Source of the DNA: Hormiphora californensis
Taxonomy: Eukaryota; Animalia; Ctenophora
Direction of reading: 5' to 3'
Assembly (NCBI GenBank): GCA_020137815.1
Contig: CM035355.1
Coordinates: 4,464,001 to 4,528,000, forward strand
DNA length: 64,000 bases
The notes below the pieces were generated by a model that was not told the origin of the DNA, did not search any database, and saw only the letters and a program-made list of their open reading frames with translations. This document shows positions 599 to 64,000 of this stretch, piece by piece (the stretch's first letter is position 1; each line of letters begins with the position of its first letter). A program made the translations under genes and the position numbers.

Positions 599-1589
599 AG
601 GGTTTTTAGTATACCGCTCAGTCCAGACAGGGCTGGATCATTGACATGAGTCCAACACTGCCCAGATTCAGAGCGGTACACCAAGGTTGCTAATATCCTG
701 ACTCACTTAGAACAAAATAGACACATCTACTGATTATATACTCCAAAAATTGAAAAAAGCCTAAGGAAAAACGGGACACATAAACTTCTGGAAAACAACT
801 TGTTAGCTGAAATTAAATAACAGACTATAAATCGAGATAAAGAAACAAAGCCAGTAGCCCTCATGCTACAAATAAATTGGTTGATTATAACATAAATAAA
901 TCAGCTCGACCCATATAAAATGGGGGCCTAAAAAATATGAGGCAGCACGCCAAAGAGACATTGAACTGGAGACCAAGTAGCATGTACAGCGTGTAAACGG
1001 AGTTGTAACCATAGCCAACTTGGAACAGTTCCAGGTGACAGGTACAGAGCGAGACACAGTCAGCACCGGGAAGAAAGCAAGAGGAGGAGGAAAAATCACA
1101 GAGGAACAGACAAGAAATTGTAAACTGTACGCAAATGAGTTTTAATTTAATAAATGACTTTGGGGCCAAAGACACGACGAGCTAAATGACGATACTCAAC
1201 TTCCCACTAACTGACACGATCAAACAATTAAAGAGCACGTTTACCTTGAACCTTCTTTACCTTGTTTAACCATCTGAGTTTACTCTTTGTACGGATTGGA
1301 TCGGTTCGTTTCCCGCAACGCCCCTGCAACCCTTCCCCCCACACTACACCCACCCGAAACAGTGGTAGCAGTGAAGTGTACAACCGATGCCGTCTGATAT
1401 TCAACCACCGTCGACGATACTCCGGGATACTCAACTTCCCACTAACTGACGCGATCAAACAATTAAAGAGCACAAAGTGCTGGTATCACTTACGCTAACG
1501 GGTATCGGGTATTATAATGTGATAATTTATAACTTAAATAAATAAACTAAGGGTCGAAGCAACCATTCCTCCGCCGTTATTATCTTAAG

Positions 1590-4500
1590 CAGGGTGTGAA
1601 CTGCATGTCGTGTTTGCTAGTCGCGAGCGCGCTTGCGAGACAAGCAAACACGTCAAGGTTCATTAACAAGCATGCTGCTCAGTCATTTTAGATTTAATAC
1701 ACAATGTAAGGATACCATGTAATAGGTGAGACTCTTGCCGTCACCCTCGTTCAAGTCCCGTGAAAAACGGAGCAGTACACGCAAACTGATGCCCATTTTC
1801 CTCGCGTGACCCCGATTCAGCAGTTTGAGACACCAACTCTTTAGGGGGCCATATCTCAGGAACCAGACAAGATAGGAAAAATCGCCGTCTAACGAGGCGT
1901 ACAGTTTTTAATCTAGTTTACCACTGTACCGGCCGTTTCACTCTCCGACCTAAAACAAAAATCACAACCCCACAAAACTTCAAAATAATGAAATTCGCAT
2001 CTCGCATGTCGTGTTGCATGTCGTGTTGCATGTCGTGTCATGTTATTGACGCGCTCGCGTTCAACTCTCACACAGCAGCTGCAGAACATGGCGGGAAACA
2101 TCGAGGAGTAGAGAGAGGGTCGGTGCCGAATCAAATATTTCTTGATCTTGATCTACTCCATCTCTCAGCTATCCTACCCCTCATCAACTCGATCTCTCAG
2201 CTACCCTACCCCTCATCTACTCCATCTTTCAGCTACCCTACCCCTCATCTACTCCATCTTTCAGCTACCCTACCCCTTATCTAGTCCATCTCTCAGCTAC
2301 CCTACTCCTCATCTACTCCATCTCTCAGCTTCCCTATTAGGGAAGCATAGAGATGGAAACGATTAGGGGTAGGGAATCCCTATCCATAATCGTTTCCATC
2401 TCTATGCTTCCCTAGCCCTCATCAACTCCATCTTTCAGCTACCCTACTCCTCATCTACTCCATCTCTCAGCTACCCTACCTCCCATTTACTCCATCTCTC
2501 AGCTACCCTACCTCCCATTTACTCCATCTCTCAGCTTCCCTACCTCCCATTTACTCCATCTCTCAGCTTACCTACCTCCCATTTACTCCATATCTCAGCT
2601 TCCCTACCTGCCATTTACTCCATCTTTCAGATACCCTACCTCCCATTTACTCCATCTCTCAGCTTACCTACCTCCCATTTACTCCATCTCTCAGCTTCCC
2701 TACCTCCCATTTACTCCATCTCTCAGCTTCCCTACCTCCCATTCACTCCATCTCTCAGCTACCCAACCTCCCATTCACTCCATCTATCAGCTACCCTACC
2801 TTCCATTTACTCCATCTCTCAGCTTCCCTACCTCCCATTTACTCCATCTCTCAGCTTCCCTACCTCCCATTTACTCCATCTCTCAGCTTACCTACCTCCC
2901 ATTTACTCCATATCTCAGCTTCCCTACCTGCCATTTACTCCATCTTTCAGATACCCTACCTCCCATTTACTCCATCTCTCAGCTTACCTACCTCCCATTT
3001 ACTCCATCTCTCAGCTTCCCTACCTCCCATTTACTCCATCTCTCAGCTACCCAACCTCCCATTCACTCCATCTATCAGCTACCCTACCTCCCATTTACTC
3101 CATCTCTCAGCTTCCCTACCTCCCATTTACTCCATCCCTCAGCTTCCCTACCTCCCATTTACTCCATCCCTGCCTCCCATTTACTCCATCTCTCAGCTAC
3201 CCTACCTCCTATTCACTCCATCTCTCAGCTACCCTACCACCCATTTACTCCATCTCTCAGCTTCCCTACCTCCCATTTACTCCATCTCTCAGCTTCCCTA
3301 CCTCCCATTTACTCCATCTCTCAGCTTCCCTACCTCCCATTTACTCCATCTCTCATTTATCCTAACATTCCTACCCCTGAGAGATGGAGTAAATGGAAGG
3401 TAGGGAAGCTGAGAGATGGAGTAAATGGGAGGTAGGGAAGCTGAGAGATGGGGTAAATGGGAGGTAGGAAAGCTGAGAGATGGAGTAAATGGGTGGTAGG
3501 GTAGCTGAGAGATAGAGTAAATGGGAGGTAGGGAAGCTGAGGGATGGAGTAAATGGGAGGTAGGGAAGCTGAGAGATGGAGTAAATGGGAGGTAGGTAAG
3601 CTGAGAGATGGAGTAAATGGGAGGTAGGGTAGCTGAGAGATGGAGTAAATGGGAGGTAGGGTAGCTGAGAGATGGAGTAAATGGGAGGTAGGGAAGCTGA
3701 GAGATGGAGTAAATGGGAGGTAGGGTAGCTGAGAGATGGAGTAAATGGGAGGTAGGGAAGCTGAGAGATGGAGTAAATGGAAGGTAAGGTAGCTGAGAGA
3801 TGGAGTAAATGGGAGGTAGGGAAGCTGAGAGATGGAGTAAATGGGAGGTAGGGTAGCTGAGTGATGGAGTAAATGGGAGGTAGGGAAGCTGAGAGATGGA
3901 GTAAATGGGAGGTAGGGTAGCTGAGAGATGGAGTAAATGGGAGGTAGGGAAGCTGAGAAATGGAGTAAATGGGAGGTAGGGTAGCTGAGAGATGGAGTAA
4001 ATGGGAGGTAGGGTAGCTGAGGGATGGAGTAAATGGGAGGTAGGGAAGCTGAGAGATGGAGTAAATGGAAGGTAGGTAAGCTGAGAGATGGAGTAAATGG
4101 GAGGTAGGGTATCTGAGAGATGGAGTAAATGGGAGGTAGGTAAGCTGAGATATGGAGTAAATGGGAGGTAGGTAAGCTGAGAGATGGAGTAAATGGGAGG
4201 TAGGGAAGCTGAGAGATGGAGTAAATGGGAGGTAGGGTAGCTGAGAGATGGAGTAAATGGGAGGTAGGGTAGCTGAGAGATGGAGTAGATGAGGAGTAGG
4301 GTAGCGGAGAGATGGACTAGATTAGGGGTAGGGTAGCTGAAAGATGGAGTTGATGAGGGCTAGGGAAGCATAGAGATGGAAACGATTATGGATAGGGATT
4401 CCCTACCCCTAATCGTTTCCATCTCTGAGAGATGGAGTAGATGAGGAGTAGGGTAGCTGAGAGATGGACTAGATAAGGGGTAGGGTAGCTGAAAGATGGA

Positions 4501-5163
4501 GTAGATGAGGGGTAGGGTAGCTGAAAGATGGAGTAGATGAGGGGTAGGGTAGCTGAGAGATCGAGTTGATGAGGGGTAGGATAGCTGAGAGATGGAGTAG
4601 ATCAAGATCAAGAAATATTTGATTCGGCACCGACCCTCTCTCTACTCCTCGATGTTTCCCGCCATGTTCTGCAGCTGCTGTGTGAGAGTTGAACGCGAGC
4701 GCGTCAATAACATGACACGACATGCAACACGACATGCAACACGACATGCGAGATGCGAATTTCATTATTTTGAAGTTTTGTGGGGTTGCGATTTTTGTTT
4801 TAGGTCGGAGAGTGAAACGGCCGGTACAGTGGTAAACTAGATTAAAAACTGTACGCCTCGTTAGACGGCGATTTTTCCTATCTTGTCTGGTTCCTGAGAT
4901 ATGGCCCCCTAAAGAGTTGGTGTCTCAAACTGCTGAATCGGGGTCACGCGAGGAAAATGGGCATCAGTTTGCGTGTACTGCTCCGTTTTTCACGGGACTT
5001 GAACGAGGGTGACGGCAAGAGTCTCACCTATTACATGGTATCCTTACATTGTGTATTAAATCTAAAATGACTGAGCAGCATGCTTGTTAATGAACCTTGA
5101 CGTGTTTGCTTGTCTCGCAAGCGCGCTCGCGACTAGCAAACACGACATGCAGTTCACACCCTG
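1590..5163. mobile_element. 3.6-kb non-autonomous foldback DNA transposon (almost fully palindromic, minisatellite-filled arms)
   Basis: CAGGGTGTGAACTGC at 1590 is the reverse complement of GCAGTTCACACCCTG ending at 5163. About 550 bp of near-identical unique inverted arms are followed by inverted minisatellite arrays meeting at ~3355-3378. A 5-bp direct repeat TTAAG flanks it (1585-1589, 5164-5168). Confidence 0.9.
2150..4602. repeat. 32-bp minisatellite (CTCCATCTCTCAGCTWCCCTACCTCCCATTTA)n, inverting at ~3365
   Basis: 32-nt period visible directly (CATCTCTCAG at 2461 and 2493); reverse-complement units from ~3378 onward. Confidence 0.95.
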
Positions 5164-5536
5164 TTAAGGATGAGAAAAGGAACTGTTTGCCTACTGTGTG
5201 CCCTGAACAGCATGTAACAAAGTATATTGATGTTAGCGCGGGGAGGACTAAAAAAAGAAAAAAAAAAGCATATTGTTCAATCAGTAAACATTATCATTTT
5301 AAAAAGGTTCATGTTGATCGAGAAGAACTTCCGAAACCCTATAAATATATATATATATATATAAAATATACTTTAGTAACGTATCTATAATAGAATTGTA
5401 TGCCATGGGAACCCCCTCTCTCCTAGTTAGAAAATCAGTACCCACGCAGGTACTTCGGGGGAGAAGGGAGGGGATAGAAACTACCAGCTTTGTGTAGATC
5501 TGTGGTATCATGACACAGTATGTATATATTACATAC

Positions 5537-8444
5537 CTGAGTGGCACTGTAAGCATCGTTTAGAAGACCCTGTATGGACGCCTGCAGTTTGAGGTAGCTG
5601 CTGGATTTTGTAGCACCTAGGAGATCCGTTACACGGTCACACGGAACAACACCCGCTATATCCAGGATATCCTGAAAAGGGGGGAGGACGTTTATTCGTC
5701 ATATAGAATGGTGTTTTTAGGAGCTGGGGAGGTTGATTGGTCGTATAAAGTGTTGTTTGTGGGGGGGGGGGATCTGATGTTGTTTGGCACAAGGGAAGTA
5801 ACATTAAACTGGGACATTAGAATGAGTCATGAACCAAATCTTCCTCCACCCCTTACTCAACAAGTGTTACCTGGGGTCAGGAACCGACCGAATTAGGAAA
5901 TACTGGTCCCTGATTGGCTGATAACCAGTCACGTGACCTAAATAACGAGTTCTGATTGGTTGTTTACTTGTGTCGGTCGGTTCTTACCTGGGGTTTAATG
6001 GAAGAGTCGGCTCTAAGTCGGGCACAACTCTGAAGATAGGTGATGGCTTTCCGCAGATCCCCACCACTCACTTGTCGTACCGTGTCTAACACCTAGCCGT
6101 GATATATATTATCTCATAATATAGGGCCAAGAAAGAGCTACAATATCATCTCATAATATGGACAAAGAGATGGAATATGAGAGTAGCATCATAGCGCTGG
6201 CAAGCGCCCGGGGCCCAATCCTCCCTCCCCCAACCATCCTTCCCTTAAAAATGTCCATTTTCCAAGCATTCTTGCTTCCATTGAATGGAAAATCGAAATT
6301 GCGAAAAAAAAAATTTTTGAATTTTTTGAAAATTTTTGTAAATTTTGACAGCGCTACTATACTTATTGTCTGAAATCGGCGATTTCAACTTAGTTTTAGA
6401 CAACCTTCTCGTTGTCCTACGAACATGCCGCTTGGTAGTTCGTGTTGCCTTGACACCTAGAGCACACGTTTAAAATTTCATGCAAATCGGAGTTACGGTT
6501 TTTGCGCTACAGATGGTCGTATTTTAGACAAAATGTCCGTTTTTAGCGTGACGAACCACCGTAAAGTAACGACTTTTTTGCGTACACGATGGAGGCCACA
6601 GTTTTAAAGCTATCACCATGAAACTTTGGGAGTCGGTAGGTCTAGTGGTGTACCTTGTATTAAAGCTTGGACAGAGAAAACGGACAGTCATAACAAAAGT
6701 TATGACTGTCTTAAGTTTTCTTTGGCGTCTAAGACAGCCTTCCCGTCGTTCTACGAATACACCGCTTGGTACGTAATGTTGCCTTGACATCTTGAACACC
6801 CGATCAAAATTTCAAGCAAATCCGAGTTACGGTTCTTCATTTACGGGCATCTGACTGTATTAAGATTTAAGACGATTTTCAAAAAAACCCAGAAAAGAGC
6901 AAATTAAACTATAAATCATGATTTTATCATATATATTTTGCCAACGTAGGTCAACTGCTGTATTTTCAGGTATAATTGGTAGTCATATCTAGATTTATGA
7001 CTGTCTTAAATTTAAGACGATTTGAAAAACACCTAGAAAGAAGCGATTCAGAGTCTAAATTAACATTGGATCAGATTTATGTTATAAAATTAGGTTTACT
7101 GCCGCATTTTCAAATATAATTGGTAGTCATATCTAGAGTTATGACTGTCTTAAATATAAGACGATTTTAAAAACCATTGAGAAAAGAGCGAATTAGTGCG
7201 TAGAACCTGATTGTATCAGATATATCTGATTATCAATGCTTATCCGTGATCATTATCCGTGAATAATAATCAAAATCATAGAATAATCGCGGAGAACCAA
7301 TCGCGGATATAATCAATCGCTGATAACTAATAGAAATTGTAATCGTGCATAACTAATCACGATAACTTATCGTAAATAAGTAATGTAGTAAGTAGTAACC
7401 ATTTGCGGGTAGCTATTAGCTAATCGCAGATAGCTAAGATCGCGATAACTGATTGCGATATCTTATAATTACGGATTCGTGATCAGTTATCTGCGATTGC
7501 AGTTGTCTACGATTACTATCATATTAGTGATTCGCAATTGATGTCCGATATTGGATATCTAATCTATATCTGCGATTGTAATTAGGCTACTTACAATTGT
7601 AAAAGTCCGTGAATCCCCAATCCGCGTTTATTAAGAATTACAAAATGCATGTCATAGTATTAGTATAACAAAATGCCTGATACTAGATCCAAAAACCAAA
7701 CAAGTTTGGTGGATAGCCGGGGCCGCAGAATAGAAATTAAAAAACGTGCGAAAGTTTTGATACATGAACTTTCGGGGCCTGGGGTGCTGTTAAATTCGCG
7801 TTTCCATGATAGTCAGCCGTTCTTTCAAAACACACTATTATTCTGTAAAACAGACTCTGAAACGACCCACTGTGTGCAGTATATTATACGTGATATGTGT
7901 GGAGCTGTATGTATGATAATGTGGAATCAAAAATAATGATAACTTGCAATCATTGCGATAGTTTTCCTGGCGTATAGTTTGAAAATGTTGCTGGTTATAA
8001 TCATGGAAACGCGAATTTAACAGCACCCCAGGCCCCGAAAGTTCATGTATCAAAACTTTCGCACGTTTTTTAATTTCTATTCTGCGGCCCCGGCTATCCA
8101 CCAAACTTGTTTGGTTTTTGGATCTAGTTGCATATATTAATTGTTAAAGTGATCTGTAAAATGTTCAAAGGAGGCCTTTGGACATTAATTAATGGATGGC
8201 AAATGGTTATTATTAGAATCTCCAGATGAAGGAGGCCTTTGAACTGTTTATGGATCACCTTTACTATCGTGACTACACAAATCTATTTAATATTGTTGTA
8301 GTGGGGGGGGGGGGGGTAAATACCTCATCATCACACTGTATTCCTTCCTGTGTACAAATGAACCTGAGACGTTCATCCAAGACTATAGTATCCAGGGGCT
8401 TGAACCGGAACTTGGCACAACGAGACGTTATGGGGGCAATTATC

Positions 8445-21807: not shown

Positions 21808-23797
21808 TTAGTTGATCCTCTTATAAAACAGCAGGTACGCAGGATCTCCCTGGAACGTGTTTCAGAACAGCCTTGTCATACTGGGTCTGCACCTTCTCAT
21901 CAGTCATGATAGATCCAGCTCATTAGAGACTGGTGGTAGGTCATGGCAGTATAGTGACCCCCCGCCGCGTGGGAAGCCATGATGTATACACCACCCCGAA
22001 CAGCCGGTATTCCCGACCCCCACACGCCGCTGCTCCTGGGGATAACATCTCATTTTGTATCGTCATCTGTACCCCAAAGTTGATCTCTTTGTGGAGTTTC
22101 TGGCAGGACTTAGCGGCCTCATCGTAAATGAACCGTTTCAGGTGGAGGATAAGAACGGGCTGGTAGGGATTCCAGGGTCTCTCTTCGATAGCACTTCACT
22201 TCATTCAGAGTGATCTGTTCTCTGTGTGTGAAGTTTAGTAGGGCATCCTCGACTGTGGAAATTGATGGATTCTGGATATCCAGCTGGAGGGACAGGAAGG
22301 GTTGAAGGGTAGCTGACTCCTTGGCACCTGCTTTAGTTACAACTGATCGGGTGAGACCCCCAAACAGCTCGCTAACCGGGCTCGTCTCGTTGTTGGATGT
22401 GTTTCGTGTCACTTGGATTCGCTTCTTTTTCCCGATCTGCTGCCACTCTCCTCCGTCCTCCTCTTGTGGAGGATCCATGATCAGGGGCAGGGAAACAGTT
22501 TTCTTTGCACTCCTGATAGCAGAGACCATCTCATCGTGGAGATTAGACAGGATGATTCCCAGGAATTCCTCCGCATCTTCCTGTCGCCCATTCTCGTTGA
22601 AACTCGGGATTTTACTTCGCAACATCTCGTAGATGGAGGTCGGTTCAAAGGGTGAATCAAAGTTGGCGTAGATCCCTGACATTAGGCGGATAACTATCAA
22701 AGAACGACTTGACAGCACAGAGAACAGGAGACACGGTGTAGTTTGGGATTGAGTTGTCTGATGACAGTGATAGAGTGGGGAGACAAGGAGTGCCTGGAGG
22801 GGGGCATGTGCGAAACAGTTGGTTGATTTGTTGATAAGACCCCTGGGGATGAGGGGAACTGTCTCAGAGTGAGTTATGGTCATGAGCTGGAGCTGGGAGC
22901 CCTAACATCATCAGCTCGTGGTCTTTAGAGGACACTATTGGCCGGGTTTCTGAGAGGATCTGGGGTAGCTTGGCAACTTGGGGCACTGTCTCCTGGGTGG
23001 GCTGGGTTTGTGGCTGGGCGGTATCTTTGAAACATGGAGGTCCACGGGTGGTGGTTGTTTGACCAAACTGATGCTGAGGGGGCGGCTGGTTTTTTGGCAG
23101 TTATCCAGGGTTCCTGTTCCTGGGCCTGGCCTGTACTTGTCGGTGAGGTGAAGGAGAGTTGGTTATCCGACCAAGACATGTCAGGCTGGGTCGACCATGG
23201 AGCGGGTGCTGCGGCCGCAAAGTTATTTTCAGGTGCAGCGGCAGCAAAGTTATTGTCGGGTGGTTGTGCAAAATTAGACGATTTCACTGCCTCTTCAATC
23301 AGCCTGTGCATAACATCGTTAATATCAGCCTTCTCTGGTGTTGATAGAATGGGAATACCGGAATGATCAGCGGATAGATTGAGAGATGGGAAGATGGGGC
23401 TGGGAATGTGAGATACCTCTCCTATTACAGAGGAGGTTATCACAGGCAGTCGCACTTCTTCTTCCTCTTCCTTTGAATAATAATCCTGGCTCATAGTTGT
23501 TGTAGGGTCATCAGGGGAAACGGCATCCACATCAACTGTTGCCCCATTCTCACCCTCAAACTCGAAATCGACGACATTCTTGAGGTCGTGAGATGAGGTA
23601 ACAATTTGACTGACCTCCTCACAACTAAACGACCCAAATGAGAGGGGAGCTGCAGCCTCACTGTCCTGCTGTAGTACACTCTGTTTGATGATCGATTCAA
23701 CCTCGCTCTGGGTGAAATCCCCGAAAAGGAGGTCGGGCACCACAGCGGTGGGGACTCCCCGATTGGTTGGCATGTTAGTGAATTGTAGGGTTGCCAT
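21808..23797 (-). CDS. USP10: Ubiquitin carboxyl-terminal hydrolase 10, intronless, with several apparent indels
   Basis: N-terminal FGDF motif; Cys box PRGLINKSTNC..LQAL; FEPTSIY, GRQEDAEEFLG..LHDEM, KESATLQPFLSLQLDIQ, HLKRF and terminal AYLLFYKR*. Split across ORFs 22925-23797, 22119-22883 and other frames down to 21808. Confidence 0.85.
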
Positions 23798-24035: not shown

Positions 24036-26059
24036 TCAAACCGGTACTTTCTTCCGTTTTCTGGTGCCCTGTTCATCACCTGACGGCAAAACATAAGCCT
24101 CCAAAACCTCACTCTGCAGCTTCCTTGACAATAACTTGCACGTCTGATCATTTTGATTTAGTTCGACGTTCCCACTATTTGCTAGCATGAGAGAGGTCAA
24201 GAATAACCGTGATACCTCCCTCCTGTCCTCTCCCCCTCCCACCAACTCAGTCAGCTCCAACACCTCCCCACTGCTCCCTGACAACTTGCTAATCAACCTC
24301 CTGCTGTAAGTACAAATATCATACGGTAACTGCCCCCTCCTCCGTATCCAAAATGGGTGATATCGTGTTCTCCCACGCCAACACTCTCTCCCGCAACTCA
24401 CTGACCCTCATCATACTCCTCGCCTCATCAGTGAATTTACTGACATGCTCCTTCACCAAGTCCCCGTAGGACAGCTTTATGTCGGCAGTGGTGAGGGCCT
24501 CCCGCTGACTCTCCTCAAGGGCCATTACCGCAGAGGAGTGGATGTCGTGATGATCCGGTTGTGGGGGAGGGCAGCTCGTTATTGTCATCCACAATCGTAC
24601 CATGGATATCCACGTCATCATCATCGTCATCAGCGCCACCTGCTCCTTCATAAACATCGTCATCATTGTTAGGATGTCTGAAGCTCTGCTCAGGAACCTG
24701 CAGTAGATCCGATGGGAGGGGGAGAGCGGGTGGCTTGGCAATCAACCTGTTCTTTAGCCGAGTATTAGCTTTCTTGTCCTTGGAAAGTGTGGCTTTGAAA
24801 AGTTCAATATTTTCTTCGAAGATGGGTTTCCGTAGGATGTTAGGAAAAGAAACGGGCTTCCGGAAGCTCCTCTTATCCAGCTTGAGAGCATTAGACAAAC
24901 TCCCGCCACTTGCCGCCTTCTTCCTCTTCCCTCTACTTGGCTTCTCGATGACACCCTTTTTAAAGGGTTTCACGGGCAGCTCCACATACGGATCCAAGTG
25001 ACAGTCAATCTTTGAAGTGTCAGGGGTGGGAATGAGAGGAACTGTGCGGCTCCTCAGGGAGGAAGAGGAGGAGGAGTGTTTGGTAGGAGTTTGGAAGGAT
25101 GGTGGAGGATCGTCATCGTCATCAACACCGAATGCCTCACCTCCATCGTCATCATCCATCCCTGCAGCAGCTAAAGTAGCATCATTTACCACAGTAGATT
25201 CACCAGGAGGATGAGTTTCATTGTTCTCTCTCTGCTCAGGAGCCACCGTGTTGTCGCCTCCTCCGCCCGGTGGTTCCCCAATACTAATGTCCATCTCGTC
25301 ATCCGGCAGCACAACACCAGGGGTGGTCGATCCCCTCTCCCTCAACTCCCCCCGTGCAAATCCATCATACTGCGACACTCTCCTCTTGAAGAATGGTGTC
25401 ATTGCTTTCAACTTCTGTTTCTGCTGTTGAGCAAAGAACATCGCGGAGTGGATATCAAAAGCTGCACAGCCGTGCTTGTTGATGAGTGATGTGGTAGAGA
25501 AGAAATCATCGTATGTTGCTACCAACTCTCCTCGTTTTCGATCAAAGATATTGTTTTCAGGGAGATCTCGTTTGGTAAGGGCGGGTGTGAGACAGAGTGG
25601 TAGCCGTGTTTTATAGTGAACACCCCGGCTAAAAGGTTTAATATCAACCCGCACCTTGGCTGATGTTGAGAGGTTTACAGGACCTAGCGTCATAGTCTCA
25701 TCCTCGCCATCACTATCTCCTCCACCCTCTCCCCCACCACCATCATCATCATCATCTCCCTTCTTCCCTTTCTTCTGTTTCTCAGCCACTAGATCCAAAC
25801 TATCAACTACAAGAGAGTACAACAGTTCCACCTTCTTGCTGTACACACCCGCACTTCCCTGGATCACAAGGGCCGCTTCTGCGAAGTTGTCGTGACCACC
25901 ACCTCCACCTTGTGACACAGTAAAACCACTCATGAACTTCTCGAGTTCTATTGAAATATCCACGTTCCAGTTTTTAGCGAGGTCCTTGATAGGGTTGATT
26001 AGTTCCTTGAGGGCCTCCAACCTCTCCTGGGATAGTCGGACATCCTCTGTTTCAATCAT
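24036..26059 (-). CDS. NCAPH2: Condensin-2 complex subunit H2 (kleisin beta), intronless, two apparent frameshifts
   Basis: PIKDLAKNWNVDI..LE and NFAEAALVIQGSAGVYSKKVELLYSLV (N-terminal kleisin domain); C-terminal EVSRLFLTSLMLANSGNVEL. Frame switches near 24565 and 24335. ATG at 26059 lies just after an AG acceptor. Confidence 0.88.
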
Positions 26060-26372
26060 TCTCTGGAAGGAGAGGGGTATTAGAGAGACATACATGAAAG
26101 GAAAGGGAGACAGAGTGAGATAGGAAAACTGAGAAAAGGAGACGGTTAGAAAGAGATAGAATGAGAGAGAGAGATAGCGAATAAGAAAATACAACGCAAT
26201 TTCTTGAAACAGTGTAACGGTAGGAATACAGTGGTAAAATTGTATTAAAAAGCATTACAGATAATAATATATTTACAAACGTTCTTTTTCATTCTCTTCA
26301 GTAGACTCGAGCACCATACTTTCTTCGAATGCAACCAAACATAACAAATATACTGTTCGTCATATTAAATAT

Positions 26373-32288: not shown

Positions 32289-33116
32289 GTGATTTTAACC
32301 CCACTCTAACACCCTCTAGTAACACCCTCCCTGTTTCTAGCTATGTGTCACACCATGGTTCGGTGATTTTAACCCCACTCTAACACCTTCCAGTAACACC
32401 CTCCCTGTTTCTAGCTATGTGTCACACCATGGTTCGGTGATTTTAACCCCACTCTAACACCCTCTAGTAACACCCTCCCTGTTTCTAGCTATGTGTCACA
32501 CCATGGTTCGGTGATTTTAACCCCACTCTAACACCCTCTAGTAACACCCTCCCTGTTTCTAGCTATGTGTCACACCATGGTTCGGTGATTTTAACCCCAC
32601 TCTAACACCCTCTAGTAACACCCTCCCTGTTTCTAGCTATGTGTCACACCATGGTTCGGTGATTTTAACCCCACTCTAACACCCTCTAGTAACACCCTCC
32701 CTGTTTCTAGCTATGTGTCACACCATGGTTCGGTGATTTTAACCCCACTCTAACACCCTCTAGTAACACCCTCCCTGTTTCTAGCTATGTGTCACACCAT
32801 GGTTCGGTGATTTTAACCCCACTCTAACACCCTCTAGTAACACCCTCCCTGTTTCTAGCTATGTGTCACACCATGGTTCGGTGATTTTAACCCCACTCTA
32901 ACACCCTCTAGTAACACCCTCCCTGTTTCTAGCTATGTGTCACACCATGGTTCGGTGATTTTAACCCCACTCTAACACCTTCCAGTAACACCCTCCCTGT
33001 TTCTAGCTATGTGTCACACCATGGTTCGGTGATTTTAACCCCACTCTAACACCCTCTAGTAACACCCTCCCTGTTTCTAGCTATGTGTCACACCATGGTT
33101 CGGTGATTTTAACCCC
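32289..33116. repeat. 74-bp tandem repeat (~11 copies) spanning the splice acceptor upstream of the MARCH ORF
   Basis: TTTCTAG ends recur at 32340, 32414 ... 33080 (period 74); units nearly identical. Confidence 0.95.
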
Positions 33117-33127
33117 ATCTTGGATTA

Positions 33128-33844
33128 ATGGGGTCTTCCCCTAAGATGCCTCATAAACACGTTATTGTGAACCCAGTTGCAGACATGCAACCACAACCAA
33201 CATCTTTTACCTCTGTCGACATTGAGGCAGGATCAAACTCCGATATCAAGGACACTTCTTCAATTAAATCTGAGAAAATATGCCGTATTTGTCATTGCGG
33301 GGTGGAAGACGAAAAGTTTATATCCCCCTGTAAATGCACCGGCTCCCTCGGCTACATCCACCAATCGTGCCTCCAGTCCTGGTTGAATATAACGGGGAAG
33401 GCTAACAAGAAACAGTGCGAGTTGTGTCAGTTTGATTTCCAGTTGCAGACCTCCCTAAAACCCCTTCACAAGTGGAAGATGCTCAAACTAACGGCATACG
33501 AGAGAAAGAAAGTTATCTGCTCATTTGCATTTCATCTCCTCGCGGTCCTATGCGTGATATGGAGCATTTGGGTGCTGATGGACAGGTTAATATCAGAGGC
33601 AAATGATAACGAAATCAGTTGGGCGTTTTGGACGAAAATTGGAGTTGTTATCATCGGTTTCATCGGGGGAATTTCCTTTATGTATAGCCAATGTAAGATG
33701 TATGTAACGTATTTTAACCGATGGAAGGCCAGTAACCAAATCATAGTTGTGTTAGATGCGGGACAATGTAGAGCTGACACTCCTCCTGGATCTGCGATAC
33801 CAGCCAACACCTCAACAGCATCCCCCATTGCTGATGTAGGGTAG
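33128..33844 (+). CDS. MARCHF8: MARCH1/8-family RING-CH E3 ubiquitin ligase, single coding exon
   Basis: RING-CH CRICH..SPCKCTGSL..IHQSCL..W..CELC; two TM segments; ERKKVICS..FH and FWTKIGVV.IGF.GG..FMY.QCK motifs match MARCH1/8. Confidence 0.88.
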   Translation: MGSSPKMPHKHVIVNPVADMQPQPTSFTSVDIEAGSNSDIKDTSSIKSEKICRICHCGVEDEKFISPCKCTGSLGYIHQSCLQSWLNITGKANKKQCELCQFDFQLQTSLKPLHKWKMLKLTAYERKKVICSFAFHLLAVLCVIWSIWVLMDRLISEANDNEISWAFWTKIGVVIIGFIGGISFMYSQCKMYVTYFNRWKASNQIIVVLDAGQCRADTPPGSAIPANTSTASPIADVG

Positions 33845-57851: not shown

Positions 57852-58883
57852 CATCACAGTTTGAATCCTCTGGCGTTGTCCACGTACTCCCTGTTATACA
57901 TGTGATGTTATGCCACACATCTTCTGATGTATCTTTATCCTGACAGTACGCCAATATCTACAGGAAAAAAACGAAGAGTTTAAAGATATTATTTGTTTGG
58001 ATAAGAAATTTCTAACATCTACTGTCAGGCCAATGCTCTGACCACCGTTCTCGCGAAGAAATGAGAATACTTAGATAGGGTCAGGCCAATGCTCTGACAG
58101 AACATCTACCTACTACTCACAGTTTCGCCGTCTAGCACCTTCAGATCATCGTCTTCATCGTACGAATAACCCTTGGGAAGCTCTGTACAGAGGGTCTCTG
58201 AAATTAAAGGAAGGGCTGTATTTAGGGCGGGGGGGGGGGGCTGTACTCTGAATTAAAGAGGGGCTGTGTTTAGGCCTTAGGGGGGGGGGGGGACTACTCG
58301 ATTGGCCCATTGTGGGATTGTACTATGATTATGTAGGGATTGTATTTGTCTTGTTTGTACCTGACCTTTCTTTATTGCTCTTCTGATTGAAACCAAAGAA
58401 GGGTCGGGTGCAAAACAGACTATAATACAGGGAAAGGGACTGCTGGGTTGTGGGTTCCCGGGTACAGTTCCCACTTCCCACAGTGTACTGTAACTGTTTA
58501 ATGTACAGGCTAAATACCACCGGCCACACGACCAACAAAAGGGTACATATCAATCGAAAATCAGGTCATCTGATTTAGATGTCTTCTCTTGCTCAACGAG
58601 AGGCTACCCCCCCCCCCCCGGCTAAAAGGGGCAGTTTCACTTACGTGTAGCTGCGAGTGCTGTAGGTACGCTGAAAACTGCTAGGATCACTGTGACAGTC
58701 AGTAAACAGGTCAATCTGGGTGTGGCTAGAAACATGCTGGGAAGCAAAACGGTAAAACTCTCGAGAGGTTGTACGACCCGACAGCCCGGGTCTTTTGAAG
58801 TTTGAACAATGATCATTGTTCGAACAGTGAGTGAGACTGAGAACACAGGTCGCACGGAATGAAAACCACACACTAAGTAGAAG
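57852..58883 (-). CDS. Partial spliced gene for a probable secreted/cell-surface protein with a Sushi/CCP-like module
   Basis: Four GT-AG exons with mutually compatible phases: 58645-58883, 58361-58509, 58121-58197 and 57852-57957. Hydrophobic start LLLSVWFSFRATCVLS; module CTELPKG..DGETILAYC..NITCITGSTWTTPEDSNC bounded by phase-1 introns. First and last exons not identified. Confidence 0.65.
58022..58100. mobile_element. CTGTCAG-family mini-element (intronic)
   Basis: CTGTCAGG..CTGACAG; perfect 8-bp TSD AACATCTA. Confidence 0.8.
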
Positions 58884-59934
58884 CTAGGAAGAGAGACTAA
58901 ACACCAACAGGGGCGGGGAGGGTGCTCTCTCTCCGGGGTAGATTTACAAGTATGATACAAATGCATATTAAACCACGCAGTAACATGTGCACTTGCAGTT
59001 GGATTACCATAACACTTGCCATGTTCTGTCAGCTCTCACCCCGCGTTGGAGGCCCGGTGTGAGCTTACGCGAGCCCGAATGGACAGACTGCGTAGCATGG
59101 CAAACTGTACTAGTACACTATAAAACTATGGGCGGGGTTATATAACTCGCTGAGCAAGCTGCCAGAGGTTTAACAATATAACGAGGCATAATGTGTGCAC
59201 TGTGCCCTATATAACTGTGCAGGAGGGTTGTGGTGTGACTATAATGGCTTGTGTATTCGTAATGGCACACATGCAGATGGTACATATGGTGGTGTACAAA
59301 TTGTACACTGCGAGAATCATGTGTACTACAATATATACATCTACAATACATACATCTGTACTATTATAACATATGTAGTGGGGCATTGGACGGTCTATAC
59401 TTGTTGCGTAGGGGGCCGGTGCCACCCTTTACTCAACAAGTAACAAGTTACCACAGTAACTTTCAAAAAACCTAATTAACAAGGGCACTGGACAAGTATG
59501 GCAACAAAAAGTGAGAACAGACCAAGAGAGAGAGAGGTCACTGGCCAGGGTGTGGATAGTAAGAGGGAGTATAGACATTATATTGTGAGAGAGAGACAGG
59601 GAGGATAAATGGAGGGAGAGAGGATAGATGGAGGGAGGGAGGGAGAGAGAGAGAGAGAGAGGGAGAGAGGATAGATGGAGGGAGAGAGGATAGATGGAGA
59701 GAGAGAGAGAGAGAGGGAGAGAGATAATGAGACAGAGGGATGGGTGGATAAGGGGGTGGCGGAAGACATTAGCTTTAACATTACACATTATACAGGTTCC
59801 TGCCTTCCAGTTTTCAAGGCAAAACTATATCCTTTCGGGTCGGTTATACACGGTACGGGGGGGGGGGGGGGGGGGGGTACCGCGGATAGCTCGGTATTTA
59901 TATTATTCAAATGTCCCAAGAGAATCGAGACACA

Positions 59935-61352
59935 CACAGTGGATTGCCCCAGTCCCGGCTTTGTTTTGTTCTAGCTAGGCAATCCCGGCTAGTGTCTTTC
60001 CTCCCAAACTTGACAGGCTACACTGTCCCTGCAATTACAGTGTAGCTCCTGTCAACTTGGGCCTACAGGAAATGTGTGTTGGCGGTTTCTCAGTGACCCT
60101 GCAGTTCGCTCCGTTGTGAGGGAAATGATTGGTGTGCCCAGCCGGGCGGATAAGCTGCTGTGGCTTTTCGATAGGATTGCGGTAATATTGCGTGTGATCA
60201 GTAGTAAAAGGAAAGTTAAAACAACCGAGTTTAAGACGTACTGTACGGAGACGTATGAGTACATCCTAACTGAGTATCCACCTCCACGGAGCCAGGTCTC
60301 CCCTACTCTCCACAAGGTATTGGCTCACGCACCAGAGGTTATGGAGAAGGAGAACAAGGGAAGAGGATTGGGGAATCTCGGTGAGGGGGGTCTCGAGGCT
60401 TGCAACAAGCTCCTACGTCGGTACAGGACGAGACTCAGCCGCAAGAACAGTCAGGAAGCGAACCTCACGGACACCATCCGCCGGCTTTTCATCCTTGGTG
60501 ATCCGGAAGTTCGAGAAGTGGGGCAAAATGTTATGGTTAGATGCCAGATATGTAAGGATCCCGGTCATACCCGAGGTGCATGCCCATCTATTATTGGTCC
60601 CTTGGGGAACCTGGACAGTACCGTGGAGTCCTTTTTTAGTTGATCATTATGTTTCCGTCTGTTCAAATGTTTAGGTTCACAATTCAACACTCTTTTAACC
60701 AATATATAACGAGTTTTAATCCTAACCTCGTATGCAAATAGCAATTCTCCTTAACATGGAATGGTTTTAGAGCTCCAATATTGATGGCAATCGATTCTTC
60801 GTGCAAAAATAGGTGGGGAAATGCTTCTAGTCGGGTCTCAGCTACTGATTTCTAAAAACTCACTTAAAAACACGCTTCCTTCAACGCTATTTTACCCAAT
60901 TTTCGGATCGTTTCGGAGAAGTGCCCCATACACTAAAAGATAGATATTTGTCAGGCCTTTCAAATAAAACTGGTCTCCCGTGACGACTCATGACGACTCT
61001 GTGTATGCCATAGCTTTATGTTTCGTTTTTGGCTGAAAAATGACTTTCCGAAAAAAAAATTTCAAAAATTTCCAAAAATTTTGAAATTTCACCTAATTGC
61101 CCTTACAAGACAACATACATTGAAGAATAAGTCTATTTTTCGTCTCGTCCTAAAACCCTGCAAGTTAAATGACAGTCAAAAAAGACAGTCAAAAATGACA
61201 GTCAAAAATGACGAAAAACTCAAATAACGCATCGATTCTGAAGCAATCAATCGGTGGGTCGCATGGCATACAACTCTATGGACTAATATCTATCGGATAG
61301 AACCATTTTTAGGAAATTTTTTTTTTCCTATGTCCACCTAAAAACCACTGTG
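59935..61352 (+). mobile_element. Transib/RAG-like transposon remnant; right end at heptamer CACTGTG, left end uncertain
   Basis: CACTGTG at 61346-61352 follows ~700 bp of AT-rich subterminal sequence. An inverted CACAGTGG at 59935-59942 matches for only 8 bp and has no clean 5-bp TSD. Confidence 0.55.
60065..60643 (+). CDS. C-terminal part of a RAG1-like/Transib DDE transposase with Cx2Cx3GHx4C tail (last exon or truncated copy)
   Basis: TGNVCWRF (Transib GNTARRF / RAG1 GNFAR); PTLHKVLAHAPEVME (RAG1 HKTLAHVPEIIE); GNLGEGGLEACNKLLRRYR..SRK (RAG1 SEGNESGNKLFRRFR); D..RRL...DP; CQICKDPGHTRGAC. Open frame with a possible acceptor CCTACAG ending at 60068. Confidence 0.85.
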   Translation, partial: TGNVCWRFLSDPAVRSVVREMIGVPSRADKLLWLFDRIAVILRVISSKRKVKTTEFKTYCTETYEYILTEYPPPRSQVSPTLHKVLAHAPEVMEKENKGRGLGNLGEGGLEACNKLLRRYRTRLSRKNSQEANLTDTIRRLFILGDPEVREVGQNVMVRCQICKDPGHTRGACPSIIGPLGNLDSTVESFFS

Positions 61353-62301
61353 GAGAGATGGGTAGAGGTATATCTATTGGCTCCATTGCAACCTATTCTC
61401 GCTCCGCGAAGAATAGGCTCCCGGCCTGTGGACAGCAAGAACTCACGTGCGCGCGATGTAAAGCACGTTTTCAGCAGTGGGACTATCAAATCGCGCGCGA
61501 TATACTGTTTTAGCAGGCATTTTTAGCCGACATAGCACTACCAAAACCCCAATTACCGCCTCAATTGGCACTTTGATGTATCGGCGGGTATTTTCCCATA
61601 CTCACAAGGCCATGACGATTCACCCAGTACCCGCAGATTGTCCCAGGACCGAGTAGGAGCTTGCAGCCAGGTCTTTAAAGAATTGCTCATATTTAGCGTC
61701 AATTTTGACCCACTATTCCTCAAATGCTGATATTCGCGGGTATTTTCCGTAAAACTAGAGACAATTATCTGCCAGGAGCAACAAACGAGATGCAAATCGG
61801 TTCAGTAGTTCCTTGCAGCCAGGTCTTTGAAAAAGTTTGCTCTAAAATCAATAACGCGCCGGAGGCCTAGATGTGAGATCGATCTCGGTCGCTGCGCGAC
61901 CTCGATCTCACTCAGGCATCAATGTGGCCAAGTATATCTATTACATCTCCATCAAATTCGTTAAACAAGTTGATTTTAAGCTTAAAAATTGGTATTATAT
62001 AGCCACACACATCCAAAAGTGAACACCACGAAAAAGGGGAGCACTGGATGCGCTGTAACAAGATGGGGTGCTCAAAAAGAACCAAAATACACTAATTTCT
62101 TTAGTCCTCTCTCTCACACACACACACATGGCCATTATATATTTCGTCTCCCTCCTTCTCTCACACTGCACGTGTTTAGTCCAGGATGCCCAGATCACTT
62201 CTGCAGTACACGACTACAAAAAAAACTCAAATTTTAGTTGTCTCACTTTCTATATCTTGCTATATAATTCTCCGGGAAAAAAGAAAGTCTCTATCTTTTA
62301 G

Positions 62302-64000
<1,699 letters not shown>

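What the first reader, a model, noticed from the sequence alone, without database searches (positions are those of the whole stretch)
59935..61352. RAG1-like transposase with ProtoRAG-type zinc tail and a perfect RSS heptamer end, with no RAG2 partner
Seen: an uninterrupted ~190-codon frame containing HKVLAH, GEGGLEACNKLLRRYR and C-terminal CQICKDPGHTRGAC, with CACTGTG ~700 bp downstream. Established: RAG1 has Zn-binding HKTLAH and its catalytic Glu in SEGNESGNK. Invertebrate RAG1L proteins (ProtoRAG type) carry a Cx2Cx3GHx4C tail. Transib/RAG ends begin with a CACAGTG-like heptamer, and RAG2L normally lies convergent downstream of RAG1L. Inference: this is a single-gene element, since there is no room or ORF for RAG2L before the right end. 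It combines Transib motifs (GN..RF, RL...DP) with RAG1L motifs, a candidate intermediate between Transib and RAG. If the host is a ctenophore or other early-branching animal, it would bear on the origin of V(D)J recombinase.
Basis: partly seen in the sequence, partly recalled or inferred. Interest (0 to 1): 0.85.

Follow-up and report, generated by a model that had tools for sequence, protein, structure and literature searches.

The report
Truncated comb-jelly Transib transposon relic
This is the broken-off last third of a jumping gene related to the antibody-gene recombinase RAG1, likely from a comb jelly; it closely matches single-gene elements already described from comb jellies in 2022, so it is likely an ordinary inactive relic and not a new missing link.

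Summary
Bases 60065-60640 encode 192 codons of a RAG1/Transib-family transposase: the zinc histidines, the catalytic Glu and a Cx2Cx3GHx4C tail. CACTGTG at 61352 is the true right end, because other copies in two samples leave the sequence at exactly that base. A host gene points to a ctenophore.

The copy is a 5'-truncated relic. It covers profile positions 526-705 of 725, lacks both catalytic Asp residues and the NBD, and nothing else of the element is in the window. The CACAGTG at 59935 is not the family's left end.

The 'intermediate' idea is sound but published. Tao et al. 2022 defined Subgroup I Transibs (CTT1 tail, alpha11-12 region, asymmetric ends, no RAG2L) and listed ctenophore elements. 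Two top hits are their MleTransib_2823 and _3931 (45-46% identical), and the fragment nests among them. The tail occurs in 109 of 171 relatives that reach it.

Verdict: new, inactive member of a known kind; interest 0.2. The remaining value is that my searches found no biochemistry for this subgroup.

The parts
60065..60643 (+). C-terminal quarter of a Subgroup I Transib transposase: second half of the zinc-binding insertion, last RNase H helix, CTD and CTT1; 192 codons plus stop
   Evidence: Family profile positions 526-705 of 725, E 1e-59; 41-46% identity to P0002-P0006; PDB best hit HzTransib E 1.9e-10
60311..60328 (+). HKVLAH, the two zinc-binding histidines (ZnH2)
   Evidence: H in 179 and 178 of 181 relatives; aligns with RAG1 HKTLAH
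60395..60397 (+). Catalytic Glu of the DDE triad, followed by Ala as in BbRAG1L and HzTransib, where RAG1 has Ser
   Evidence: E in 180 of 181 relatives; alignments
60542..60583 (+). CTT1 zinc knuckle Cx2Cx3GHx4C, predicted to clamp the DNA next to the heptamer
   Evidence: Sequence; strict motif in 109 of 171 relatives that reach it; function shown for BbRAG1L according to passages
60644..61316 (+). 3' non-coding and subterminal region, with three 13-bp-spaced repeats at 61167-61212; no RAG2L-sized frame
   Evidence: 60644-60895 is also conserved in organism B (contig 60381-60895, 43 differences in 513 nt)
61317..61352 (-). Right (3') terminal inverted repeat; read inward: CACAGTGG, 14 nt, TAGG, A10
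   Evidence: Loose ends at exactly 61352 in runs X1 and X5; same layout with a 15-nt spacer in three published ctenophore 3' TIRs, compared by eye
60003..60061 (.). 59-bp palindrome flanked by CCT on both sides, abutting the truncation point; likely not part of the Transib
   Evidence: (z -4.3 for 59930-60070); no cover in organism B and flat low depth in organism A
59935..59942 (+). CACAGTGG look-alike; not supported as the family's left end
   Evidence: No 5-bp TSD (ACACA against GAGAG), no second TIR block; single contigs cross it with flat depth in X1, X2 and X5, and X12 has no cover

Best explanation
It is the 3' end (1.29 kb, 60065-61352) of a single-gene Transib DNA transposon, likely of the already described Subgroup I and likely in a ctenophore, and this copy is predicted to be inactive because it lacks two of the three catalytic residues and a recognisable left end. 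The parent element is inferred to be about 3.6-3.8 kb, with one 730-750-aa transposase (NBD, RNase H DDE core, zinc insertion with the alpha11-12 region, CTT1) between CACAGTGG ends whose inner spacers differ by about 10 bp. By analogy with HzTransib, BbRAGL and RAG it would cut each end by nick and hairpin without RAG2 and insert with a 5-bp duplication. This copy lost its 5' part by deletion or rearrangement and survives as a fragment among several other decayed right-end copies.
For: SHOWN. (1) P0003 (45% over 99% of the query) reads, by eye, as MleTransib_3931 of PMC9435367 apart from one predicted intron, and its cluster holds two Mnemiopsis proteins. P0099 (E 4.6e-43, 46%, second of 150 rows) reads as MleTransib_2823. 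(2) Tree of 182 rows: the fragment sits in a 21-row clade (SH-aLRT 90) with both elements and the Bolinopsis protein. (3) The family profile scores HzTransib 243 bits, BbRAG1L 189, RAG1 131-145. (4) Truncation: profile positions 526-705 of 725 only, and no other hit below E 1.7 among 2643 six-frame segments of the window. An organism B contig of 437 nt fits 60065-60346 and its other 155 nt do not fit. (5) Right end at 61352; stop-to-end distance 709 bp against 738 bp in MleTransib_3931. (6) Past coding function: between the window and organism B, 19 synonymous and 7 non-synonymous codons of 26 changed, omega about 0.06-0.09 (28 of the contig's 31 differences were listed). (7) Host: a MARCH-type gene of the window is 82% identical to a cluster with a Mnemiopsis leidyi protein; hits outside the top five are at most 52%. 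INFERRED: the parent's size, left end, TSD and chemistry, from published relatives (PbaTransib_0868 has a 5-bp TSD and 25/15-nt spacers) and from passages.
Against: My tree held no RAG1, RAG1L or HzTransib row, so it shows nesting among published ctenophore elements but not the position relative to RAG1L. The two branches that carry the claim have SH-aLRT 84 and 90, below the starred level, in a quick search without bootstrap. In structure the full-length Mnemiopsis relative ties between RAG1 (Z 33.2, rmsd 2.7, 492 aligned) and HzTransib (Z 32.4, rmsd 2.8, 467 aligned), and Foldseek ranks RAG1 chains first. Pfam names only RAG1 (E 1.1e-5, below the cut-off). I could not see the paper's figures, so assigning these two Mnemiopsis elements to Subgroup I rests on the paper's text (CTT1 marks Subgroup I) and on their sequences. 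No full-length copy of this exact family was recovered, as no genome is held. The loose-end table was cut (18 rows shown, 36 hidden).
Confidence: 0.9

Rival explanations
1. It is a complete non-autonomous deletion derivative running from CACAGTG at 59935 to 61352, still movable by a transposase supplied in trans.
For: Eight matching terminal bases (CACAGTGG) lie 130 bp upstream of the break; internal deletion is the usual way such elements decay (general knowledge).
Against: The flanks ACACA and GAGAG are no TSD. The inner block seen at the right end is missing at the expected spacing (spacing). Single contigs cross 59935 at flat depth in X1, X2 and X5, while depth rises over the right end. 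Organism B covers the ORF and the right end but has no cover on 59880-60029.
Confidence: 0.05
2. The fragment has been recruited by the host: the CAG at 60066-60068 acts as a splice acceptor and adds the Glu helix, CTD and zinc knuckle to a host transcript.
For: The frame is open to its natural stop. Without the 59-bp hairpin the upstream text would be a pyrimidine run ending in CAG. Relatives carry introns in this general region (loci L002-L005).
Against: RNA run X22 of organism A laid 0 records on the stretch (weak, contigs only). No upstream exon was found. MleTransib_3931 and PbaTransib_0868 have no intron at this motif. The purifying selection is explained by the element's mobile past. 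The neighbouring RAD23-like gene is on the other strand.
Confidence: 0.04
3. It is the RAG1L end of a true RAGL transposon whose RAG2L lay upstream in tandem, as in the alga Aureococcus, which would be the first ctenophore RAGL.
For: The tandem layout exists; the 5' part is missing here, so it cannot be excluded directly; the structure ties with RAG1.
Against: The nearest relatives are single-gene elements of about 3.8 kb. In L001 the 917 bp between the heptamer and the ATG hold no frame above 82 codons, and in L002 the 1356 bp after the stop none above 72. The profile prefers HzTransib. The DP motif typical of Transib is present (D in 158 and P in 165 of 181).
Confidence: 0.02

Closest known systems
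Subgroup I Transibs of Tao et al. 2022 (PMC9435367): MleTransib_2823, MleTransib_3931 (Mnemiopsis leidyi), PbaTransib_0868 and _8175 (Pleurobrachia bachei)
   Same: 45-46% identity over the fragment to the two Mnemiopsis elements; SEGGxEACNKLLRR-type Glu motif; CTT1 in the Mnemiopsis elements; CACAGTGG ends with a TAGG or GACAT block 10-15 nt inside; about 0.7 kb from stop to right end; no RAG2L
   Different: A distinct family (at most 62-64% identical to anything found, P0098); spacer 14 nt and not 15; this copy is 5'-truncated. The two Pleurobrachia proteins as printed end without the Cx2Cx3GHx4C motif
HzTransib (Helicoverpa zea; PDB 6pqn, 6pqx), Subgroup II
   Same: Best PDB sequence hit; GN..RRF and DP motifs; single gene; Ala after the catalytic Glu
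   Different: No CTT1 and no NBD in the solved chain (matches begin at profile position 170); about 39 residues shorter in the zinc insertion, where relatives of the fragment align with RAG1
BbRAG1L of ProtoRAG (PDB 6b40) and other invertebrate RAG1L
   Same: CTT1 motif; the model of the full-length relative aligns through the tail (to model residue 718)
   Different: Lower score (189 bits against 243); RAG1L has a long pre-RNase H loop and an N-terminal region, and sits beside RAG2L
Vertebrate RAG1
   Same: HKxLAHxPE motif, catalytic Glu, fold (Z 33.2), end identical to the RSS heptamer
   Different: About 20% identity in the structural alignment; acidic tail instead of CTT1; needs RAG2; the end here has no ACAAAAACC nonamer (0 matches in the window)

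Membership tests
Transib, Subgroup I (Tao et al. 2022) | CTT1 tail Cx2Cx3GHx4C | tested here: met
   60542-60583
Transib, Subgroup I (Tao et al. 2022) | Groups with the published Subgroup I proteins | tested here: met
   Clade of 21 rows with MleTransib_2823 and _3931, SH-aLRT 90; no RAG1L or Subgroup II reference in the tree
Transib, Subgroup I (Tao et al. 2022) | [quoted passage not shown] | tested here: inconclusive
   Relatives have about 39 residues that HzTransib lacks and that align with RAG1 and BbRAG1L. That stretch lies upstream of the break; equating it with alpha11-12 is my inference, as the figure was not visible
Transib, Subgroup I (Tao et al. 2022) | Asymmetric TIR pair | tested here: inconclusive
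   The right TIR has the short-spacer layout; no left TIR was recovered
Transib superfamily | Single transposase gene, no RAG2L | tested here: inconclusive
   Met downstream and in relatives L001, L002 and MleTransib_3931; the 5' part of this family was not seen
Transib superfamily | End begins with a CACAGTG-type heptamer | tested here: met
   Copies end at 61352
Transib superfamily | 5-bp target site duplication | tested here: inconclusive
   None around 59935-61352, and no earlier CAC end preceded by GAGAG on the plus strand of the window; expected if the left end is lost
Transib superfamily | Complete DDE triad | tested here: not met
   Only the Glu is in this copy; both Asp residues are invariant in 63 long relatives (D289, D391, E658 of P0278). 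This marks the copy as a fragment, not the family as different
Transib superfamily | Nick-hairpin cleavage and transposition | not testable with these tools
   Inferred from passages on HzTransib, BbRAGL and RAG
RAGL / ProtoRAG transposons | RAG2L gene, convergent and downstream of RAG1L | tested here: not met
   709 bp from stop to end; longest minus-strand open stretch 55 codons
RAGL / ProtoRAG transposons | Closer to RAG1L/RAG1 than to Transib | tested here: not met
   Fragment: HzTransib 44 bits, RAG1 at most 23.5, BbRAG1L 21.4; profile 243, 145, 189. Structure is tied
RAGL / ProtoRAG transposons | N-terminal zinc-finger and RING region | tested here: inconclusive
   Missing with the truncation; no such Pfam match in the full-length relatives P0278 and P0097

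The most novel reading that the evidence does not exclude
Full-length members of this ctenophore clade are working single-subunit transposases that use NBD plus CTT1 to pair two ends whose spacers differ by about 10 bp, without any RAG2. A 12/23-like rule would then predate RAG2, and this family, under purifying selection and with several right-end copies in two species, would supply a near-intact enzyme to test it.
Probability: 0.2. Interest if true: 0.6.

Novelty: new member of a known kind. Interest (0 to 1): 0.2.

Why it matters
Little on its own: a fragment of one more family in a large clade (1001 clusters at 50% identity match the fragment, E up to 0.001). It adds a likely further ctenophore host and one mapped right end to a subgroup known from few annotated elements. 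The subgroup matters because it keeps the NBD, the RAG2-facing region and the CTT1 clamp without RAG2, and five paper searches showed no biochemical or structural study of it. An intact member, not this copy, would be the object to study.

Tried and rejected
No genome is held, so the search for full-length copies was not possible; public runs were used instead. Five of 22 listed runs were laid (X1, X2, X5, X12, X22). RNA run X22 gave 0 records, which is weak and no proof of silence.

Related-locus scans: viral contigs 0 of 37 and 0 of 7 stretches; prokaryote genomes 0 of 14; metagenomes 8 of 136. None of the 8 loci holds both ends, and none is close to the window at DNA level (best E 0.066). 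The host check by the protein atlas got no answer. Three look-ups of earlier findings returned nothing.

Rejected: 59935 as the left end. A 4-bp GAGA repeat if the end were placed at 59931 (wrong length, GA-rich DNA; read). Further transposase exons in the window (15 weak tblastn rows, best E 0.024). Summed contig depth as a copy number.

For the tree, 182 of 242 rows were kept; the others had no BLAST hit or a match spanning fewer than 126 query residues. The fragment itself was not folded; the full-length relative P0278 was.

Full report
OBSERVATION. The plus-strand frame 60014-60643 is open for 209 codons. CACTGTG lies at 61346-61352, 709 bp after the stop. The heptamer alone means little (9 in the window, 7.8 expected). 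Contigs of public runs settle it: 3 contigs in run X1 and 2 in run X5, two samples of organism A, fit up to exactly 61352 and go on into unlike sequence.

WHAT THE PROTEIN IS. Against solved structures the fragment's best hit is HzTransib (E 1.9e-10), ahead of RAG1 (4e-4) and BbRAG1L (1.8e-3). A search for longer proteins gave 5 hits among 622 candidates, 40-45% identical, one named from the ctenophore Bolinopsis microptera. A search of 1.84 billion representatives gave 1001 hits, 150 listed. A profile from 63 long relatives scores HzTransib 243 bits, BbRAG1L 189 and RAG1 131-145. In that alignment the family has a stretch matching the RAG1 nonamer-binding domain and about 39 residues in the zinc insertion that HzTransib lacks. 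An AlphaFold model of the 740-aa Mnemiopsis relative P0278 (mean pLDDT 89) ties between RAG1 (Z 33.2) and HzTransib (Z 32.4), with BbRAG1L at 28.6 but aligned through the tail.

IT IS PUBLISHED. PMC9435367 (Tao et al. 2022; whole main text read; supplement parts 1, 8, 9 and 22 of 24 and three searches; figures not visible) defines Subgroup I Transibs. They have the CTT1 tail, the alpha11-12 region and asymmetric TIRs, and the paper calls them intermediates between Transib and RAG1L. It reports six ctenophore Transib-like proteins. By eye, my hit P0003 is its MleTransib_3931 apart from one predicted intron, and P0099 is its MleTransib_2823; the P0003 cluster holds two Mnemiopsis proteins. In a tree of 182 rows the fragment pairs with P0098 (99) and lies in a 21-row clade with both published elements and the Bolinopsis protein (SH-aLRT 90). 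The tree held no RAG1, RAG1L or HzTransib row. The strict tail motif occurs in 109 of 171 relatives that reach it, of 181 rows. Passages of bioRxiv 10.1101/2023.08.20.553239 also state that this tail has been identified in Transib transposons. Passages of PMC7204232 give its role in RAG1L. The supplement's figure pages with the tree and alignments hold no text, so the subgroup label of each element is read from the main text and the sequences.

THE ENDS. Read inward, the right end is CACAGTGG, 14 nt, TAGG, A10. The published 3' ends of MleTransib_3931, PbaTransib_0868 and PbaTransib_8175 read CACAGTGG, 15 nt, TAGG; the 5' ends of the first two have 25 nt there (by eye). MleTransib_2823 has a GACAT block 11 nt (3') and 21 nt (5') after CACAGTGG, and the window has GACAT after 10 nt. 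The window's end is therefore an ordinary short-spacer 3' TIR of this subgroup. The candidate left end at 59935 shares only 8 bases, has no inner block at the long spacing and no TSD. It is crossed by single contigs at flat depth in X1, X2 and X5, and it has no cover in organism B, which does cover the ORF and the right end. I reject it as the family's left end.

THIS COPY IS A FRAGMENT. It matches profile positions 526-705 of 725, starting at 60065 inside the conserved GGTTTxGN motif, and nothing else in the 64 kb matches. Both catalytic Asp residues, the two zinc cysteines, the DDBD and the NBD are missing (positions). A 437-nt contig of organism B fits 60065-60346 with 31 differences, and its remaining 155 nt do not fit the window. 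The junction is real in organism A: one contig spans it in each of X1, X2 and X5. Other partial copies join at 60240, 60756, 60874 and 61051, one with small deletions at 60277 and 60300, so the family appears decayed in organism A. Between the window and organism B, 19 of 26 changed codons are synonymous (28 of 31 differences listed), omega about 0.06-0.09. The frame was under purifying selection in the past, as expected for a mobile transposase; this does not show present function.

HOST. A MARCH-type RING gene at 33131-33838 has five close hits (67-82%); the 82% one clusters with a Mnemiopsis leidyi protein, and the next hits are at most 52%. A ctenophore host is very likely; the species was not determined.

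MECHANISM. Shown: the anatomy, the right end, the truncation, the kinship. Inferred: the parent was a single-gene element of about 3.6-3.8 kb (MleTransib_3931 spans 2018-5807 of its printed locus; PbaTransib_0868 has a 5-bp TSD). Its transposase would bind each end through the core and the CTT1 clamp, with the NBD on the inner block, cut by nick and hairpin without RAG2, and insert with a 5-bp duplication, by analogy with the enzymes described. This copy cannot encode that enzyme and, lacking a left end, is predicted to be immobile.

VERDICT. New member of a known kind, interest 0.2. Five searches of the held library (listings only, apart from the three papers named) showed no biochemistry for Subgroup I, which keeps the subgroup, though not this copy, worth an experiment. 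Most subscription papers are outside that library. The statement that internal deletion is the usual decay route of such elements is recalled, not from a call.

Noticed in passing
window 60003-60061: A 59-bp near-perfect palindrome with CCC...GGG ends, flanked by CCT on both sides, right at the truncation point; possibly a tiny insertion with a 3-bp duplication. A second hairpin lies at 59934-59996. Low depth in organism A, absent in B.
   Followed up: partly
window 60786-60818: A stretch of about 33 bp inside the element's 3' region is shared with a very abundant repeat (summed depth about 140,000-157,000 in X1 and X5).
   Followed up: no
window 61377-61931 and 58021-58100: Very abundant short repeats with many loose ends start 25 bp after the element's end; the 58017-58105 one holds a 19-bp direct repeat and a 27-bp inverted repeat.
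   Followed up: no
window 62300-64000, minus strand: RAD23-like gene (XPC-binding E 4e-15, UBA), ending about 950 bp from the element's right end.
   Followed up: partly
window 22122-22901, 24518-26254 (minus), 33113-33841 (plus): Long exons that look like a USP10-type protease, condensin II subunit H2 and a MARCH RING ligase (the first two names are recalled, only MARCH was tested).
   Followed up: partly
window 1829-4924: A large inverted duplication around a tandem array: the same 151-codon frame appears at 1829-2281 (+) and 4472-4924 (-), with repeats on both strands between them.
   Followed up: no
L001:155-3267: Marine metagenome contig with a CACAGTGG end and an intact, intronless 731-codon Subgroup I transposase with CTT1; a candidate for expression.
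   Followed up: partly
P0215 (no locus): A 1174-aa family member with CTT1 and an N-terminal extension of about 450 aa with no Pfam match; 31 near-identical members, mostly on contigs of 4-7 kb.
   Followed up: partly
L002-L005 and hits P0076-P0083: Family members carry introns at several different positions around the GGTTTxGN motif, while others have none.
   Followed up: no
window 61003-61352 in run X12: In organism B the right 350 bp has far higher summed depth (about 1000-3900) than most of the ORF (about 40-270), which suggests many short non-autonomous derivatives (depth is no copy number).
   Followed up: no
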